From a phage, in the NCBI GenBank assembly GCA_012409925.1, contig GCA_012409925.1_4804.1: a DNA stretch of 60,053 bases. One strand, 5' to 3'. The translations under genes and the position numbers were made by a program. Of the stretch, positions 15,456 to 21,701 are shown piece after piece. A model generated the notes under the pieces. That model was not told the origin of the DNA and did no database searches. It worked only from the letters and a program-made list of their open reading frames with translations. The number at the start of each line of letters is the position of its first letter. Within the stretch, counting starts at the first letter, position 1.

Positions 15456-16874
15456 TTATTCCCCTTTCAACCAAGCTTCAAATGCTTCGTCAGTTGCTGC
15501 AGAATCCGCAGCGGCCTTTTGTTTTGCGACTACACGCTGTTTTTGACCGTGCTCAACGCCGCGCAGATAATTATCCACCACGTCAAACTCAGCACCATCA
15601 ACGCACTTCAAGCCTAACTTTTTAGCGCCATATTTCGCTACGGACTTGGAGTCCATAGTTGCATGATCAAAGGCACCAACAACTTTAGACAGGCGCTGGT
15701 AGAGGCTATTCTTACGAGCAGAATCAGCGTAGAAAGCAGCAACTGCTGAATCAGATGCCATTGAGTGTTCCCCTTTTGCTGGACCTGGCGACGCTTTCGC
15801 CGCTTTTGTCGGTTTGTCATCTTTTTCGACCGAAGCCCCCTTTACGTTGCTGTTTTGCAGGCCGCTAACCACATCTTCAGCTTTGTCGCAAGGTGATACA
15901 TCTTCAGCCTTGACTTCAACTTCTTCGTCTTTGACTTCGGCTTCAACTTCTTCTTCATCACCTACCGCGCCACCTTTCAGTTTTGCAATAAGTGCTTCGA
16001 TTTGGCTGATCAGTTGCGGAAGCTCGCCGCCAGCGTGAGATTCAGTTTCAACTTCAAACTTCTCTTCACCTTCTGGAGTCTCTTCAGCTTCTGCTTTAAC
16101 TTCTGGATCAACCATCACTTCTTCACGTTCTTCGGTTGAATCCTTCTCTTCTGCTTTCACTTCAACTTCGTCCTGATGAGCCGCTTCGGTGCTCTCTTCA
16201 TTCAGAAATTGTTCGAGCGCAGGGATCAGTGATTTCAGCTGTTCAACAGCATTATCACGCGCTTTACCTTTTAACGGTTTTGGCATGTCTAAATCCTCGT
16301 TGGATGGTGTTACAGTCGTCAAACAAAGATGGTCAAAGCAACGACCATCCAGCACCCGTGCACCTGGTACTCGACCAACGTCCACGAGAGCAATGTGGTT
16401 GCCGCGAAGAGTTGTCTGTACCACTTCATACGGCTGCCCGTCAAACTCTCCAGACTGTATGATGAATTCACAGTCATAGCCCAAAGACAAGTCAACCTTT
16501 CCAGAATCGATGGCCTTCTTCAGACGACGGCTAAAAACTTTAAGGTCGCCGCGCATCCATGGCTTGTCATAATAAACATTGCCAGTTAGAACGCCATCAA
16601 CGCCATACTCTTCGGGTGCTGTGTTATCCTCATCACCTTCGAATCCAGAAAGCATTTCGTGATTGTCGATGAAAGGGATATTTTTGAATGAATCTATCGC
16701 TTCGGGGTCTTTCACCGCTGACTCTGGGCGATAAACTTTTACGATGCGATTCGGATCACCATCAAGTCCAACCTGACCTGCAGAATAATCAAAAATGCCA
16801 AATGACGAAATGGGACAACCCACAATCGTCAAGAATCCATTTTTGTCAATTTCGCGTGCCGTTTGCATTCGCAT
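15456..16874 (-). CDS. prohead protease/scaffold-like protein, 472 aa
   Basis: Globular N-terminal ~170 aa followed by a highly acidic low-complexity region (DEEEVEAEVKDEEVEVKAED...) typical of scaffolding proteins. Confidence 0.45.
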   Translation of the reverse strand: MRMQTAREIDKNGFLTIVGCPISSFGIFDYSAGQVGLDGDPNRIVKVYRPESAVKDPEAIDSFKNIPFIDNHEMLSGFEGDEDNTAPEEYGVDGVLTGNVYYDKPWMRGDLKVFSRRLKKAIDSGKVDLSLGYDCEFIIQSGEFDGQPYEVVQTTLRGNHIALVDVGRVPGARVLDGRCFDHLCLTTVTPSNEDLDMPKPLKGKARDNAVEQLKSLIPALEQFLNEESTEAAHQDEVEVKAEEKDSTEEREEVMVDPEVKAEAEETPEGEEKFEVETESHAGGELPQLISQIEALIAKLKGGAVGDEEEVEAEVKDEEVEVKAEDVSPCDKAEDVVSGLQNSNVKGASVEKDDKPTKAAKASPGPAKGEHSMASDSAVAAFYADSARKNSLYQRLSKVVGAFDHATMDSKSVAKYGAKKLGLKCVDGAEFDVVDNYLRGVEHGQKQRVVAKQKAAADSAATDEAFEAWLKGE

Positions 16875-17437: not shown

Positions 17438-18358
17438 TTAGTTCAGCTTAATTGCGGTGATCTGTCCGTAAACGGTAGATGTCAACGCGTCGGTGCATTG
17501 ATAGTTTAAATACACATTACCAGGCGCGGCAAGAGTAATTACTTTTGTTGGGATGTTGCCGCCGAAGCGACCTGCAGTCCGAATGCCAGCTGACATGGCA
17601 AATGCATCATCCGTAATATCTGAATTGCTTGTTGACAATTTGACTGTAATTCCGGTATTCGCTTGAACGCCTGCTGTCGCGACAGTCAACTGACTTGCTG
17701 TTACAAGCCATTTCCCTGCAGGAAGGTTTAAGGTTGCCAGATTGACCAAAGTTGTTGGAGGATTGCTGACGCTATTAGTGGCATTCTGGACGGTACTTGC
17801 TGCTGCATTAAGCACACCAGACCCATCAATTGATAGAGTTGTACCGACCTTTACGCCGCCTAAAGTAGATGCTGAGGCAATCGGCAATGAGTATTGGGTG
17901 ACGCTGATTGTACCATCACCTGCTACGCTTATTCCGGTGCCTATTTTGACGCCACCAAGAACGGAAGCTGTTGCCGCTGGTAACGTGTATTGGTTGCCGC
18001 TGGTTTTCACAACTTTGACTGCGACAGCGTTTTTCGACCCTCCAGACTCCATACCTATGATCACTGCTTCACCAAAAGCAATGGTGATTGTTGATGCAGT
18101 CAAGCCAGTTTGAACGTCTGTGATGTTCATCTTAGGCACAGACAATGTCAGGTTAGGCTTGCTGGTCGAATCGCCATCATTGCCAATCATAAAGAATTGA
18201 CCTACTGAGTTATACCCTGATGCAAGCGGCGGGCTCAGTGGAACCATCAAGTTTTTATCAGAAGTGAATTCTGAGACAATTGCCAAGCCATTAGCATACA
18301 CCGCAGGCAAGACTGGAGTTTGTCCAGATAGAGGGAATGTGTTGATTGGTATCGTCAT
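17438..18358 (-). CDS. virion protein with two internal ~33-aa tandem repeats
   Basis: ORF track frame; start moved to ATG at 18358 (GAGG RBS); repeats YTLPAATASVLGGVKIGTGISVAGDGTISV / YSLPIASASTLGGVKVGTTLSIDGSGVLNA. Confidence 0.45.
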   Translation of the reverse strand: MTIPINTFPLSGQTPVLPAVYANGLAIVSEFTSDKNLMVPLSPPLASGYNSVGQFFMIGNDGDSTSKPNLTLSVPKMNITDVQTGLTASTITIAFGEAVIIGMESGGSKNAVAVKVVKTSGNQYTLPAATASVLGGVKIGTGISVAGDGTISVTQYSLPIASASTLGGVKVGTTLSIDGSGVLNAAASTVQNATNSVSNPPTTLVNLATLNLPAGKWLVTASQLTVATAGVQANTGITVKLSTSNSDITDDAFAMSAGIRTAGRFGGNIPTKVITLAAPGNVYLNYQCTDALTSTVYGQITAIKLN

Positions 18359-18365
18359 AATGACC

Positions 18366-19217
18366 TCAGATAATTGGTATTTTTCTGCACTTGCAGTGTA
18401 TTGCCCATCCAGGAGGACCGATGTCACCCTTTTTGAACTTAAGTTCTCCACCTACTTCCCATAAGCGTTTGTCATCAAGCTTGAATCTCATGCCGTCGAC
18501 GTGCTCATGTGATATTCGCGGCTCTTTGCCTGCTCCTGAATGCGCCCACTCAAATTCCTCAACGCCATTCTGTCGCATCCTTTCATCACTTAATACGCAA
18601 TAAAGTTTGCTCGTTTGGTCTTTGGCGATAAGGTCTACGCGTTTTGCAGAGAATTGTTTTACATTCCTTAGTGCCGCCTGAATGCCGGATGTGCCTTGCT
18701 GCGCTGGGTCTGGCGAAGTCAGCGAAAGCATCACCGCTTCGTACACCCTGTTGTGAATATCCTCGCCAACCTTAGTCACTAGAGTCGTGTTGAACGTCTC
18801 GCTTGTTTTAAGAGTGTTCTCAACGAATTTATTATATGTGGCTTTTGGCGCTTCTATTCCTGCAGATTTAAGACTTGCGAATGTAGCAGAAGTCGCACCC
18901 TTTTCAACTGACTTGATGAAATCTGCGGCAATCTTTGACCCAACACGGGCGAATGCTTTTGCCCATTTCAGTTGAAGGCGCTTCATCAAGGTCTGAAAAG
19001 TTGAATCAGCAGAGTCTTGCGCAAAGAACCTTTTCACCTGCTTCTTTTCAAGCCACTCAGCAATGCCTGCCTGATAGTCATCAATCATCGCATAGCAAAG
19101 ACCTTTCATCTCACGACGATAGGCCATCGCAATAGCGTTGGATGGGATTATCGGACTGCCGCGCCCGATTCTATCGGGTGAGCGGCGTTCGCGTTTTTTC
19201 GAAGCTTTAAAAGCCAT
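18366..19217 (-). CDS. head morphogenesis protein, MuF-like
   Basis: Directly downstream of portal; C-terminal ...GWAIHCKCRKIP... Cys/His motif typical of Mu F-like proteins; start at ATG 19217 abutting portal stop. Confidence 0.55.
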   Translation of the reverse strand: MAFKASKKRERRSPDRIGRGSPIIPSNAIAMAYRREMKGLCYAMIDDYQAGIAEWLEKKQVKRFFAQDSADSTFQTLMKRLQLKWAKAFARVGSKIAADFIKSVEKGATSATFASLKSAGIEAPKATYNKFVENTLKTSETFNTTLVTKVGEDIHNRVYEAVMLSLTSPDPAQQGTSGIQAALRNVKQFSAKRVDLIAKDQTSKLYCVLSDERMRQNGVEEFEWAHSGAGKEPRISHEHVDGMRFKLDDKRLWEVGGELKFKKGDIGPPGWAIHCKCRKIPII

Positions 19218-19218
19218 A

Positions 19219-21594
19219 TCAACCTTGCTTCGGTGAATTAGTAGGATTATTGAGTGCTCCATATGCTTGAGAGCAATCACTCTTCAACCACTCCTTGAAT
19301 GAGTTTACATCCAATTCGTGGATTGAGTCAAATCCATTCCAACCGTTACCAAATGATGCTTGATAAGCTTCTTTCGCTTCTTCTGCTGAATCGAATCCAA
19401 GCATACACTTGTGTTCATCAAATTCGCCAGAATAATTATCATTTTGGTTAATGATGAATACTTTAGGCGACTTCATATTTGGTCCAACAAAGCAGTCGAC
19501 TTCATCACCATCAGCACCCTTGGTGCCTTTGATAAATCCGTAATGGTGCGGCATCTTAACTGCCCATTCACCATCAAGGCTGTTACCCCTGCGAATGCTG
19601 TTTCGAGGATTCTCGATGCCAAGAATCATCCCGTGCAACTTCATCTTAGGCAGCGACGCAGCATCCATCTTCCCTACGTTGTGGCGCAAGTTGACTACAT
19701 TGCCTTTTACGCTTGGAAGGGTAGACGGCTGCACAGACCTTGCGTCTTTTTGAGGGTCAAAATCCACATCCTGACCTTCTTTAAGGTAATAGTCAGAAAT
19801 ACCCTCCAGACCTTCTTTCAGTTGCGTTAGGACATCAACCTGATGGCTTGATTCGTCATCGGTATCATCCATGTTGATCTCAACTGGTGCCCTGTCAGGG
19901 TTTTCTGCCAACTCACCGCGCGCGGCACCTTCCGGCATGATACCAGTCTCACTATAGAACTGGCCGCCCATTTTGACGACATCAGCTTTGGCCTGTTCAA
20001 TATCGGCTTTACCTTGCAGAACTTCACCAGCAGACTTGCCAAGCAATGCCATATTCTCTGGAGACATCCCTGGGGTTTCTTCTGCTGTATCTTCTGGCAA
20101 ACGGTTGTAGCCGCTGTTTTTGTCGTCCTTGATGCGGTCGCGCTCTTCATCAGGGGAGATGACGCCAGCATCAATGAGAGTCTTACCAGTATTCGCTCGT
20201 TTGTCGTTAATCTCTGCAAGCTGAGTAGCAGTAAGTGAACCAACTGGCTCCCATGCCACTTTAACGTCGACTTCAACACCTTCAGATTTCAAAAGGATTT
20301 TATAGTGACGGTCAAGAATCTTCGTCAAATCGTGCTGCTGACAAGTCTCCAATTCTTCGTGATAGCTGACCATTTCGAACTCACCAGTGGCATTAAAGCC
20401 TTTAGGTGACGTCCCTAACAGTTTTGTCGACGGAACTTTTGCGATTGCGGCCACCAGCTGGTACTGGTTCATGATGATGCTGTCGAAGTCTGACAAGTTG
20501 ATGTCAAACTGGTCCATCTCTTCTTTCTGACCAAGCACTTTAACCGCATAGTTGTCGCGGTACTTAATCCACATCATCAGACGTTCGGCAAACGACCGCT
20601 CATTGGCAATCGCCTTGTCAACGTCGGTCCGCAGAGTGGTTGTACGCTTAGACATCGCCAGCAATGGCGCTTCGTTAGCGGTACGTTCAGCGGCATAGAT
20701 ACGTTCATAAATCTGTTGAGTCAGAGGAATGCCGCCGTAGATATAAGTCGGCTTGAGAATATCAGCTGGCTCATCATTGCGCAAGATGATTAGGTGGCTG
20801 CGATGATAACGCTGTCCGCTGATCACCCAGTATTCTGGATCATAGAAGTGCTGTGATGCAGGGTCTGCAGTGTTTTCAGACGTCAAGAATGGCATCATCC
20901 AATAAGGGTCAACTTGAATGATTCCCTTATAAGACCCTTTTGTCACACCATCGATGTTAAAAGGTTTGCTATAATATTCTGGGTCATCACTGCGCACATC
21001 AAATATGATGACGCGGATACCAAAAATATTCTTGAATCGTTCGGCTTCAACTAAGTGCTCTTTGATATTAAATTCTTTATCAATTTGCTTTAGGCGTTCG
21101 CTGGCCTGTACTGACAATTCCGACTCAGAACTGGATTTGACTTCCCAGCCTTTACGGACCGCATCGCGGCCTACCATGGAACAAGCCTTGTTCACCAGCC
21201 AGTGCTGCGCGATGATGGCGCAAGCTTGATATCCGATAAATGATTGCGATAAGTACCAGTTTTGCAACTGAATAGGTACTGTGTATGGATTAACCTGCCC
21301 TTCTGAACTGATGTTCTTCAAAGCATTGTCCATAACTTTTTTGGATACGGTTGCTGAATCTACTGAGCGACCTTTGATGATTGCAACACCGTCCCCGTTG
21401 ATATCAGGCTCATATAAAGGAAAGTCATCAACGGTTTTAAAGGTCGGGCGGTTGCTTTCTGTCTTATCCCAGCGTTGACCGCTGCCGCGCCTTTCCAGGC
21501 GTTCAAACGGTGCCAATGGGTCGCCTGGCGGCATCTCCGCTTGTTCGGCTTCTGGTTGCGTCTTCTCCCAGAGTTTTATGCCAAGAATTTTCAT
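19219..21594 (-). CDS. portal protein with C-terminal inorganic-pyrophosphatase-like extension
   Basis: ~790 aa between large terminase and MuF-like gene; start at ATG 21594 with GGTGG RBS (track used GTG 21606); C-terminal ~130 aa carry ...HYGFIKGTKGADGDEVDCFVGP... resembling the DGDPxDVLV core of family-I pyrophosphatases. Confidence 0.55.
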   Translation of the reverse strand: MKILGIKLWEKTQPEAEQAEMPPGDPLAPFERLERRGSGQRWDKTESNRPTFKTVDDFPLYEPDINGDGVAIIKGRSVDSATVSKKVMDNALKNISSEGQVNPYTVPIQLQNWYLSQSFIGYQACAIIAQHWLVNKACSMVGRDAVRKGWEVKSSSESELSVQASERLKQIDKEFNIKEHLVEAERFKNIFGIRVIIFDVRSDDPEYYSKPFNIDGVTKGSYKGIIQVDPYWMMPFLTSENTADPASQHFYDPEYWVISGQRYHRSHLIILRNDEPADILKPTYIYGGIPLTQQIYERIYAAERTANEAPLLAMSKRTTTLRTDVDKAIANERSFAERLMMWIKYRDNYAVKVLGQKEEMDQFDINLSDFDSIIMNQYQLVAAIAKVPSTKLLGTSPKGFNATGEFEMVSYHEELETCQQHDLTKILDRHYKILLKSEGVEVDVKVAWEPVGSLTATQLAEINDKRANTGKTLIDAGVISPDEERDRIKDDKNSGYNRLPEDTAEETPGMSPENMALLGKSAGEVLQGKADIEQAKADVVKMGGQFYSETGIMPEGAARGELAENPDRAPVEINMDDTDDESSHQVDVLTQLKEGLEGISDYYLKEGQDVDFDPQKDARSVQPSTLPSVKGNVVNLRHNVGKMDAASLPKMKLHGMILGIENPRNSIRRGNSLDGEWAVKMPHHYGFIKGTKGADGDEVDCFVGPNMKSPKVFIINQNDNYSGEFDEHKCMLGFDSAEEAKEAYQASFGNGWNGFDSIHELDVNSFKEWLKSDCSQAYGALNNPTNSPKQG

Positions 21595-21701
21595 TGTTAA
21601 CGCCACCTGACAGTGAAAGGGGAATCAATCTATATTATAAATATTCATGTGTTTGTAAGCAAATGATATGTATAGTAATCATAAATAGTTCATAAAATAT
21701 T

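What the first reader, a model, noticed from the sequence alone, without database searches (positions are those of the whole stretch)
19222..19603. Portal protein carries a C-terminal inorganic-pyrophosphatase-like domain
Beyond the ~480-aa portal body and an acidic linker, the last ~130 residues read ...LGIENPRNSIRRGNSLDGEWAVKMPHHYGFIKGTKGADGDEVDCFVGPN...NDNYSGEFDEHK..., matching by eye the family-I pyrophosphatase core (E. coli PPase ...EIP...KYE.D...[20 protein letters not shown]...DEAGEDAKL) including the Asp-rich metal-binding motif. An enzymatic domain on the portal would be delivered with the virion or positioned at the DNA entry/exit channel.
Basis: partly seen in the sequence, partly recalled or inferred. 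Interest (0 to 1): 0.6.

Follow-up and report, generated by a model that had tools for sequence, protein, structure and literature searches.

The report
Phage portal with pyrophosphatase-like tail domain
The portal protein of this E. coli phage really does end in a small pyrophosphatase-like enzyme domain that travels inside the virus particle, but this domain and its fusion to portals were already described in 2017 and are catalogued in Pfam; only its biochemical role remains untested.

Summary
The ORF 19219..21606 (-) encodes a 795-aa (annotated 791-aa) portal. It has a Phage_portal_3 core, a helical barrel segment, an acidic variable linker and a C-terminal domain (aa 653-775, nt 19282-19650). 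That domain hits Pfam PF18823 'InPase' at E=4e-46.

The window is a Wifcevirus myophage, 97.5% identical to vB_Eco4M-7 over the portal gene. Published mass spectrometry of CsCl-purified vB_Eco4M-7 preparations contains six peptides from this domain. In the related Pseudomonas phages E217 and Pa193 the portal C-terminus gave no cryo-EM density, which fits a flexible tether inside the head.

This is not new. Iyer et al. 2017 defined the domain and noted portal fusions, and 471 phage records carry it. I found no biochemical study. The most likely role is a packaged phosphoanhydride hydrolase; delivery into the host is inferred, not shown.

The parts
19219..21606 (-). Portal-InPase gene. The ORF runs from GTG at 21606; the likely true start is the ATG at 21594 (791 aa); the TGA stop is at 19219-19221.
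   Evidence: (phrog_4660 full length, 1267.8 bits). Residue numbers in this report use the 795-aa ORF.
21274..21594 (-). N-terminal segment (aa 5-111). It is not modelled in the E217 or Pa193 portal structures.
   Evidence: 32% identical to E217 gp19. Peptides TQPEAEPAEMPPGDPLAPFER and TESNRPTFK were seen in the vB_Eco4M-7 phage-preparation MS.
20077..21273 (-). Portal core (aa 112-510; the Pfam Phage_portal_3 match is aa 126-472).
   Evidence: PF06381 E 4.4e-88. 64% identical to E217 gp19 residues 97-494, which were built into cryo-EM maps. dN/dS 0.008.
19975..20076 (-). Segment equivalent to the E217 C-terminal helical barrel (aa 511-544), which projects into the head.
   Evidence: Aligns to E217 residues 495-528, the last residues modelled. 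No amino-acid change among 10 Wifcevirus portals.
19651..19974 (-). Acidic linker (aa 545-652) with no recognisable domain.
   Evidence: pI 4.36, net charge -11. No Pfam hit. Only 23% identical to E217, yet dN/dS is 0.024 within the genus. Its tryptic peptides are present in the phage-preparation MS.
19282..19650 (-). InPase domain (aa 653-775), a compact family-I-pyrophosphatase-like OB fold.
19495..19542 (-). Core active-site motif YGFIKGTKGADGDEVD (Y689, D699, D701, D704), aligned to E. coli PPase Y55, D65, D67, D70.
   Evidence: Aligned by phmmer, hmmsearch and hhalign. In 159 homologues Y689 and D704 are invariant, D699 is 157/159 and D701 is 153/159.
19612..19614 (-). Glu665 of the IENP motif, aligned to E. 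coli PPase E20.
   Evidence: Invariant in 159/159. Aligned to E20 within the 93%-probability hhalign block.
19408..19440 (-). D723 and the F-D730-E731-H732-K733 motif, the probable equivalents of D97, D102 and K104.
   Evidence: D730 158/159, E731 159/159, H732 149/159, K733 159/159; D723 is D in 85 and N in 42. D723=D97 falls inside the confident hhalign block. D730=D102 appears only at relaxed stringency.
19222..19281 (-). C-terminal 20-aa tail, outside the domain and predicted disordered.
   Evidence: pLDDT below 50 for the last 9 residues. The peptide GDCSQAYGALNNPTNSPK was seen in the phage-preparation MS, so the C-terminus is retained.
18366..19217 (-). MuF-like head morphogenesis gene. 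Its ATG is 1 nt after the portal stop, which suggests translational coupling.
   Evidence: PF04233 E 2e-7 and phrog_324 E 1.8e-68. Junction sequence read. The annotated start in vB_Eco4M-7 matches.
15456..16874 (-). DUF2213 head maturation protease, context only. It is the only candidate in the module for cutting the arm off the portal.
   Evidence: PF09979 E 5e-35 and phrog_3778 E 8.5e-173. No cleavage has been shown.

Best explanation
The last ~125 folded residues of the portal protein are an InPase domain (Pfam PF18823). This is a trimmed-down relative of family I inorganic pyrophosphatase with the two-metal catalytic centre intact.

The domain follows the portal's C-terminal helical barrel, which points into the head. 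Twelve copies per virion therefore most likely sit inside the capsid on ~110-residue acidic flexible tethers. This is inferred from homologous structures and from phage-preparation mass spectrometry.

The domain most likely works as a Mg2+-dependent hydrolase of a pyrophosphate (phosphoanhydride) bond. The substrate would be PPi itself or a pyrophosphate-containing nucleotide-like molecule.

The most likely purpose is inferred, not shown. It is that of other virion-packaged effector domains of phage 'polyvalent proteins': to be present at or immediately after DNA entry, before any phage gene is expressed. There it could remove PPi that inhibits early polymerase reactions, or destroy a host nucleotide signal. 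Acting free in the host cell would need proteolytic release from the portal, which has not been shown.
For: Identity of the domain:
- PF18823 scores E 4e-46.
- The AF2 model has pLDDT 91.9.
- hhalign against 12 diverse PPases gives prob 93%, E 2.7e-7.

Active site:
- E665, Y689, D704, E731 and K733 are invariant in 159 domains drawn from different 50%-identity clusters. D699 (157/159), D701 (153/159) and D730 (158/159) are nearly so. Most of these domains sit in unrelated giant proteins.

Selection:
- dN/dS is 0.025 across 10 Wifcevirus genomes.
- The domain is 59% identical to E217, against 23% for the linker.

In the virion:
- The domain accounts for about 439 of 559 spectra for the portal in CsCl-purified vB_Eco4M-7. 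Peptides were also found in ECML-117 (PMC7048862 Tables S2 and S3).

Position:
- E217 and Pa193 portals were modelled only to residue 528. Their barrel projects into the head and residues 529-765 gave no density (PMC10329688, PMC11456595).

Effector logic:
- Homologous portals carry an ADP-ribosyltransferase toxin or a topoisomerase IB after the InPase domain.
- Iyer et al. 2017 made the same argument (PMC5512222).
Against: - No enzyme assay exists for any PF18823 member in the searchable literature.
- Several canonical substrate-binding residues lack equivalents. E31 aligns to Gly674, the strand carrying R43 is deleted, and K142 aligns to a variable position. PPi may therefore not be the substrate.
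- The portal stays with the capsid after ejection, and there is no evidence that the arm is cleaved. Linker peptides are also present in the phage preparation.
- E. coli already has abundant PPase, so extra PPi hydrolysis seems of little use.
- Absence of cryo-EM density does not show where the domain is.
Confidence: 0.6

Rival explanations
1. The domain is an active enzyme but is never delivered. It stays tethered to the portal and acts in the producer cell or in the procapsid or head, for example during assembly or packaging. Fusion to the portal only fixes its amount and location.
For: - The portal remains in the capsid after ejection.
- Peptides along the whole linker are present in the phage-preparation MS, so nothing indicates removal of the arm.
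- The linker is under purifying selection within the genus (dN/dS 0.024), as expected if tether length or sequence matters.
- A relative carries topoisomerase IB on the same arm, an activity that could act on the packaged DNA itself.
Against: - Terminase-driven packaging produces ADP and Pi, not PPi (established biochemistry), so there is no obvious substrate in the head.
- The same domain occurs mostly in giant polyvalent proteins together with effectors that must act in the host, such as ADP-ribosyltransferases (PMC5512222).
- One portal relative carries an exotoxin-type ADP-ribosyltransferase, which has no plausible target inside a capsid.
Confidence: 0.25
2. The domain is a catalytically dead structural module. 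It could be an internal head or plug element, or a metal- or DNA-contacting element that helps retain or position the genome end near the portal barrel.
For: - It is located next to the barrel, which contacts DNA and is folded only in DNA-filled E217 particles.
- Some canonical substrate-binding residues are missing.
- The domain has an OB fold, which is often used for nucleic-acid binding.
Against: - The full set of metal-binding carboxylates is invariant across 159 domains in quite different protein contexts. That is hard to explain without catalysis.
- The domain is acidic (pI 5.5, net charge -4.6), which is unfavourable for DNA binding.
- It gives no ordered density in two cryo-EM studies.
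Confidence: 0.1
3. The resemblance to pyrophosphatase is a chance match of a short Asp-rich motif.
For: Direct sequence similarity to canonical PPases is confined to about 25 residues and falls below the PF00719 cut-off.
Against: The predicted fold independently recovers PPases as the only strong hits. The profile-profile alignment extends to 65 columns at 93% probability. The secondary-structure order matches E. coli PPase (compared with the known structure).
Confidence: 0.01

Closest known systems
InPase domain of phage polyvalent proteins (Pfam PF18823; Iyer, Burroughs, Anand, de Souza & Aravind 2017, J Bacteriol, PMC5512222)
   Same: A direct member, at 156.6 bits against a cut-off of 26.8. 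It has the same compact architecture with a deletion relative to canonical PPases and the same conserved acidic residues. The paper explicitly cites a portal-InPase fusion (BcepF1.124), the architecture seen here.
   Different: Nothing essential. This is the Wifcevirus (E. coli) representative. It carries a single effector domain rather than the 2-15 domains of typical polyvalent proteins.
Portal gp19 of Pseudomonas Pbunavirus phages E217 and Pa193 (PDB 9B41; PMC10329688, PMC11456595)
   Same: Collinear over the full length with 51% identity. It has the same core, barrel, linker and InPase order, and the C-terminal domain matches at E 5e-46.
   Different: The linker is only 23% identical. In those structures residues 529-765 were not resolved and the domain was not discussed.
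Family I soluble inorganic pyrophosphatase (Pfam PF00719; E. coli Ppa)
   Same: OB-fold core with the same strand and helix order. Equivalents are present for E20, Y55, D65, D67, D70, D97 and probably D102 and K104.
   Different: About 50 residues shorter, and below the PF00719 gathering score. E31 becomes Gly, the R43 strand is deleted and K142 is not conserved. New invariant residues appear: R672, W681, Q721. It is fused to a virion protein rather than being a free cytoplasmic hexamer. Activity is untested.
Head-packaged, injected phage effectors such as T4 Alt ADP-ribosyltransferase and MuF-fused toxins
   Same: Enzyme domains carried inside the head through a packaging or anchor module and available before phage gene expression. 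A sister portal carries an ADPrib_exo_Tox domain on the same arm.
   Different: T4 Alt is a free internal protein processed by the prohead protease. Here the enzyme is covalently part of the portal, and neither release nor injection has been shown.

Membership tests
InPase (Pfam PF18823) | Profile HMM score above the curated gathering threshold | tested here: met
   156.6 bits (160.4 for the isolated 143 aa) against a cut-off of 26.8, covering profile positions 12-135 of 135.
InPase (Pfam PF18823) | Conserved acidic (metal-binding) residues of the family | tested here: met
   E665, D699, D701, D704, D730 and E731 are all present. They are invariant or at least 96% conserved in 159 homologous domains.
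InPase (Pfam PF18823) | Lacks the extra beta-hairpin or insert that canonical PPases have early in the fold (Iyer et al. 2017) | tested here: met
   hhalign places an 8-residue gap opposite E. coli residues 38-45 and a 2-residue gap at 29-30. The domain is about 123 aa against 175 aa. No residue-level 3D superposition was available.
InPase (Pfam PF18823) | Occurs in phage proteins that are packaged into the virion | tested here: met
   Fused to the portal. Six peptides from the domain were found in CsCl-purified vB_Eco4M-7 preparations. 471 phage records carry the domain.
Family I inorganic pyrophosphatase (Pfam PF00719) | Profile HMM score above the gathering threshold | tested here: not met
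   18.3 and 21.7 bits against a cut-off of 23.5; only profile positions 32-57 match. The NCBIfam PPase equivalog scores 18.7 against 246.
Family I inorganic pyrophosphatase (Pfam PF00719) | PPase OB fold | tested here: met
Family I inorganic pyrophosphatase (Pfam PF00719) | Metal-binding and general-base residues E20, D65, D67, D70, D97, D102 | tested here: met
   E665, D699, D701, D704 and D723 align within the 93%-probability block. D730=D102 appears only at relaxed stringency. D723 is Asp here but D/N across the family.
Family I inorganic pyrophosphatase (Pfam PF00719) | Phosphate-binding residues K29, E31, R43, Y51, K104, Y141, K142 | tested here: inconclusive
   R672 lies within 2 positions of K29, and H732/K733 lie at or next to K104. 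E31 becomes the near-invariant Gly674 (154/159). R43 falls in a deleted strand. Y51 aligns to Met685. Invariant Y748 may correspond to Y141, but the next position (aligned to K142) is variable. This part of the alignment has low confidence.
Family I inorganic pyrophosphatase (Pfam PF00719) | Mg2+-dependent, fluoride-sensitive hydrolysis of PPi | not testable with these tools
   No assay of any PF18823 protein was found in the literature library.
Phage portal protein (Pfam PF06381, Phage_portal_3) | Profile match, and homology to a portal whose dodecameric structure is solved in situ | tested here: met
   E 4.4e-88. 64% identity over the E217 gp19 residues built into cryo-EM maps. It sits between terminase and the MuF, protease and capsid genes.
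Polyvalent proteins (Iyer et al. 2017) | Several (2-15) effector domains in one polypeptide | tested here: not met
   There is only one effector-type domain plus the portal, and no further Pfam domain in the linker. Relatives P0021 and P0025 do carry a second effector.
Polyvalent proteins (Iyer et al. 2017) | Effector domain fused to a virion-packaging anchor (portal or MuF) | tested here: met
   Portal-InPase fusion. The paper names this architecture.

The most novel reading that the evidence does not exclude
The portal-borne InPase domain is not a plain PPi hydrolase. In this reading its altered leaving-group site (no E31, R43 or K142 equivalents; new invariant R672, W681, Q721 and conserved H732) adapts it to a pyrophosphate-containing nucleotide or alarmone made by the host on infection. 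Twelve copies would be cut from the portal during head maturation and enter the cell with the DNA as a pre-made counter-defence enzyme.
Probability: 0.15. Interest if true: 0.7.

Novelty: already known. Interest (0 to 1): 0.3.

Why it matters
If the domain is active and delivered, every virion of a large group of therapeutic-candidate myophages would bring twelve copies of a phosphoanhydride hydrolase into the cell before any phage gene is expressed. That group includes Pbunavirus, Wifcevirus and relatives, 471 records in the phage collection. It would be a simple, testable case of portal-anchored effector delivery. The idea itself is not new: it was published in 2017 and the domain is in Pfam and in UniProt names.

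This check adds four practical points:
- The domain is retained in purified phage preparations, according to published mass-spectrometry tables.
- It is under strong purifying selection.
- Its metal site is intact while part of the canonical phosphate-binding site is not.
- Sister portals use the same arm to carry a toxin-type ADP-ribosyltransferase or a topoisomerase IB.

The open question is biochemical: what is the substrate, and is the domain released?

Tried and rejected
1. The search for homologous proteins with the 143-aa domain returned only 18 short proteins. The exhaustive representative search was needed to see the real size of the family.
2. The search for homologous proteins with E. 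coli PPase returned only homologues at least 82% identical. The resulting shallow profile gave a 23-column hhalign match. I replaced it with 11 diverse plasmid-borne ppa genes, which extended the confident block to 65 columns.
3. The structure tools return no coordinates, so residue-level superposition on a PPase-substrate complex was not possible. The equivalences beyond D97 (D102, K104, Y141, K142) stay at low confidence.
4. Literature searches for any experimental work on the domain found none (PF18823, InPase, 'inorganic pyrophosphatase + portal protein + virion', 'pyrophosphatase + Pbunavirus'). The QatABCD papers that surfaced concern ATP pyrophosphatase assays and are irrelevant.
5. NCBIfam has no model for the domain.
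6. No Pfam domain was found in the linker.
7. I considered a hidden second domain or a frameshift artefact and rejected both. The ORF is uninterrupted and collinear in 10 Wifcevirus genomes and in E217.
8. I ran no further search on the linker, because only a single-sequence prediction would have been allowed.
Full report
**What is there**

The finding lies at the 3' end of a long minus-strand ORF, 19219..21606, of 795 aa from a GTG. All close relatives annotate the ATG 12 nt downstream, giving 791 aa. Residue numbers below use the 795-aa ORF.

Pfam places a Phage_portal_3 domain at aa 126-472 (E 4.4e-88). It places PF18823 'InPase (Inorganic Pyrophosphatase)' at aa 653-775 (E 4.3e-46, 156.6 bits against a cut-off of 26.8). 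A sub-threshold hit to canonical PF00719 falls exactly on the Asp-rich motif, aa 683-707. PHROGs matches the whole protein to phrog_4660, 'minor head protein' (1267.8 bits). It matches the C-terminal 143 aa alone to internal segments of very large phage proteins.

The given range 19222-19603 is slightly short: the domain is 19282-19650, and the invariant Glu665 at 19612-19614 lies outside the range. The range also includes a 20-residue disordered tail.

**Source and context**

The window is a Wifcevirus E. coli myophage. The portal gene is 97.5% identical to vB_Eco4M-7, and 29 records match at 91-99%. The gene sits in a standard head module: terminase large subunit, portal, MuF-like protein, a head-fibre-like protein, a DUF2213 maturation protease and the capsid protein. 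The MuF ATG follows the portal stop by one nucleotide.

**Anatomy of the protein**

The protein is collinear with gp19 of Pseudomonas phage E217, at 51% identity overall. By segment:

| Segment | Residues | Identity to E217 |
|---|---|---|
| Core | 112-510 | 64% |
| Barrel equivalent | 511-544 | 38% |
| Linker | 545-652 | 23% |
| InPase | 653-775 | 59% |

So two conserved modules are joined by a variable, acidic tether (pI 4.36, net charge -11).

In the E217 and Pa193 cryo-EM structures the portal was built only for residues 97-528 and 94-528 of 765. The last visible element is a helical barrel that projects into the head and is folded only when DNA is present. Residues 529-765 gave no density (PMC10329688 and PMC11456595). 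The Pa193 chain (PDB 9B41) matches the window's C-terminal domain at E 5e-46. By homology, the InPase domains should lie inside the capsid beyond the barrel, flexibly attached.

**Is it really pyrophosphatase-like?**

An AlphaFold2 model of the last 143 residues, built from a 16-sequence alignment, has mean pLDDT 91.9.

- Foldseek against the PDB returns family I PPases in all of the top 50 places (best E 1.9e-4, prob 0.90-1.00, TM 0.3-0.54).
- Sequence-only methods see just the motif PHHYGFIKGTKGADGDEVDCFVG = [23 protein letters not shown].
- A profile of 159 InPase domains compared with 12 diverse PPases aligns 65 columns at 93% probability (E 2.7e-7).

That profile alignment gives these equivalences (window residue = E. 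coli PPase residue):
- E665 = E20
- Y689 = Y55
- D699, D701, D704 = D65, D67, D70
- D723 = D97

At relaxed stringency it adds D730 = D102 and puts H732/K733 at or next to K104.

The strand and helix order of the model matches that of E. coli PPase, with shorter loops (compared with the known structure from my own knowledge).

**Conservation**

phmmer against 1.84 billion cluster representatives finds 11,274 proteins at E<=1e-3 and 9,358 at E<=1e-10. Of the 165 homologues retrieved by the two searches, 77 exceed 1,000 aa and 48 exceed 2,000 aa, so many are giant multidomain proteins.

In 159 full-length domains taken from them:
- Invariant: E665, R672, W681, Y689, G690, D704, Q721, E731, K733, G737 and Y748.
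- At least 96% conserved: D699, D701 and D730.

The window protein has all of them.

Among 10 Wifcevirus genomes dN/dS is 0.025 for the domain, 0.024 for the linker and 0.008 for the core. No conserved residue changes.

The alignment also shows what is missing relative to canonical PPase:
- E31 aligns to the near-invariant Gly674 (154/159).
- The strand bearing R43 is deleted.
- Y51 aligns to Met685.
- The position after Y748, aligned to K142, is variable.

From established PPase enzymology (my own knowledge), D65, D70 and D102 hold the two catalytic metals and D67 activates the water. E31, R43 and K142 serve the substrate-bound metals and the leaving-group phosphate. The catalytic centre therefore looks intact while the leaving-group site looks remodelled. 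This is an inference from low-confidence parts of the alignment.

**Is the domain in the virion?**

The supplementary peptide tables for CsCl-purified vB_Eco4M-7 (PMC7048862) list 559 spectra for the portal. The domain peptides are:

| Peptide | Spectra |
|---|---|
| MPHHYGFIK | 263 |
| LHGMILGIENPR | 140 |
| GDCSQAYGALNNPTNSPK | 12 |
| GADGDEVDCFVGPNMK | 10 |
| VFIINQNDNYSGEFDEHK | 7 |
| CMLGFDSAEEAK | 7 |

That is about 439 of the 559 spectra. Peptides along the linker and from the N-terminus are also present. ECML-117 gives the same domain peptides.

So the domain is retained in purified phage preparations. The data cannot say whether it is still attached to the portal.

**Distribution and prior knowledge**

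tblastn finds the domain in 471 of 50,697 phage records: 294 Pseudomonas (mostly Pbunavirus), 70 Vibrio, 27 Escherichia, and others. One is already annotated 'inorganic pyrophosphatase'. BFVD contains the same fold in the Serratia phage MTx portal (TM 0.89) and in proteins UniProt names 'Inorganic pyrophosphatase domain-containing protein'.

Iyer et al. 2017 (PMC5512222) defined the InPase domain. They noted that it lacks a hairpin present in solved PPases and that it is found in phage polyvalent proteins likely to be packaged. [quoted passage not shown] BcepF1.124)'. They proposed either removal of inhibitory PPi or attack on a nucleotide-like substrate.

I found no experimental study of the domain.

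**Extra evidence on how the arm is used**

Five of the 165 homologues retrieved by the two searches share this portal core. Two of them continue beyond the InPase domain. P0021 adds an ADPrib_exo_Tox domain, and P0025 adds a bacterial-type topoisomerase IB. The C-terminal arm of this portal lineage therefore behaves as a carrier for exchangeable enzyme cargo. This fits the packaged-effector logic. A protein-targeting ADP-ribosyltransferase has no plausible target inside a capsid.

**Most likely mechanism**

- Shown: the protein is a portal with a C-terminal InPase domain. The domain has a PPase-like fold and a conserved metal site, is under purifying selection, and is present in purified phage preparations.
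- Inferred from homologous structures: twelve copies sit inside the head on flexible acidic tethers beyond the barrel.
- Inferred from family context: the domain is a metal-dependent hydrolase of a pyrophosphate bond that is meant to be available at the very start of infection. Acting freely in the host would require cleavage in the linker. The DUF2213 protease is the only candidate in the module, and the product would have to pass through the channel. Neither step has been shown.

The rivals are an enzyme that works while tethered in the producer cell or head, and a non-catalytic structural role. The second is disfavoured by the invariant catalytic residues and the acidic charge.

**Verdict**

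The feature is a member of an already described and curated family in an already described architecture, so it is not novel. Interest is modest. It lies in the untested biochemistry and in the question of release from the portal.

Noticed in passing
window 17438-18451 (-): A 337-aa ORF between the MuF-like gene and the protease matches Pfam Phage_head_fibr (PF11133, E 4e-6, 26.9 bits against a cut-off of 24.6). It contains two copies of a 'LP(A/I)A(T/S)ASxLGGVK(I/V)G' motif. Its vB_Eco4M-7 orthologue (gp38) is one of the best-covered proteins in the phage-preparation MS (72.9% coverage) but is annotated 'unknown'. It is probably a head fibre or decoration protein.
   Followed up: partly
window 19215-19221 (-) and ORF 18366-19280 (-): The MuF-like gene's real start is the ATG at 19217, one nucleotide after the portal TGA (…GGT TGA T ATG…). 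This suggests translational coupling. The longer GTG-initiated ORF listed from 19280 overlaps the portal 3' end and is probably an artefact of ORF calling.
   Followed up: partly
proteins P0021 (1191 aa) and P0025 (1106 aa), found with the domain: Portals with the same core and InPase domain continue with a C-terminal ADP-ribosyltransferase exotoxin domain (PF03496, E 3e-17) or a bacterial topoisomerase IB (PF01028, E 2e-20, plus PF21338). The portal arm appears to be a carrier of exchangeable enzymes.
   Followed up: partly
PMC7048862 Supplementary Table S2 (vB_Eco4M-7 gp36, the orthologue of window 19219-21594): Spectral counts are extremely uneven. About 439 of 559 spectra come from the InPase domain and only 6 from the 400-residue portal core. 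This could reflect protease resistance of the assembled core, or a free, accessible C-terminal fragment. The table alone cannot tell which.
   Followed up: no
window 15456-16874 (-): The DUF2213 head maturation protease (domain at aa 7-174) carries a ~300-residue tail that is strongly acidic and rich in Glu, Val, Lys and Ala over roughly aa 210-335. It looks scaffold-like, so this may be a protease-scaffold fusion.
   Followed up: no
protein P0019 (1116 aa) and P0034 (3902 aa): P0019 carries two tandem InPase domains. P0034 combines GGDEF (diguanylate cyclase), InPase, RadC-like JAB and polyvalent-type ADP-ribosyltransferase domains. The pairing with a nucleotide-signal synthase, which releases PPi, is suggestive for the function of InPase.
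   Followed up: no
loci L012, L015, L018 (plasmid ppa genes fetched only to build a PPase profile): Plasmid-borne canonical ppa genes sit immediately next to crcB (fluoride exporter) or a DUF190 gene and, in two of the three loci, next to eno (enolase). This fits fluoride-resistance cassettes that duplicate fluoride-sensitive enzymes. It is unrelated to the finding.
   Followed up: no
window 1-60053: ARAGORN found no tRNA or tmRNA genes in the 60-kb window.
   Followed up: yes
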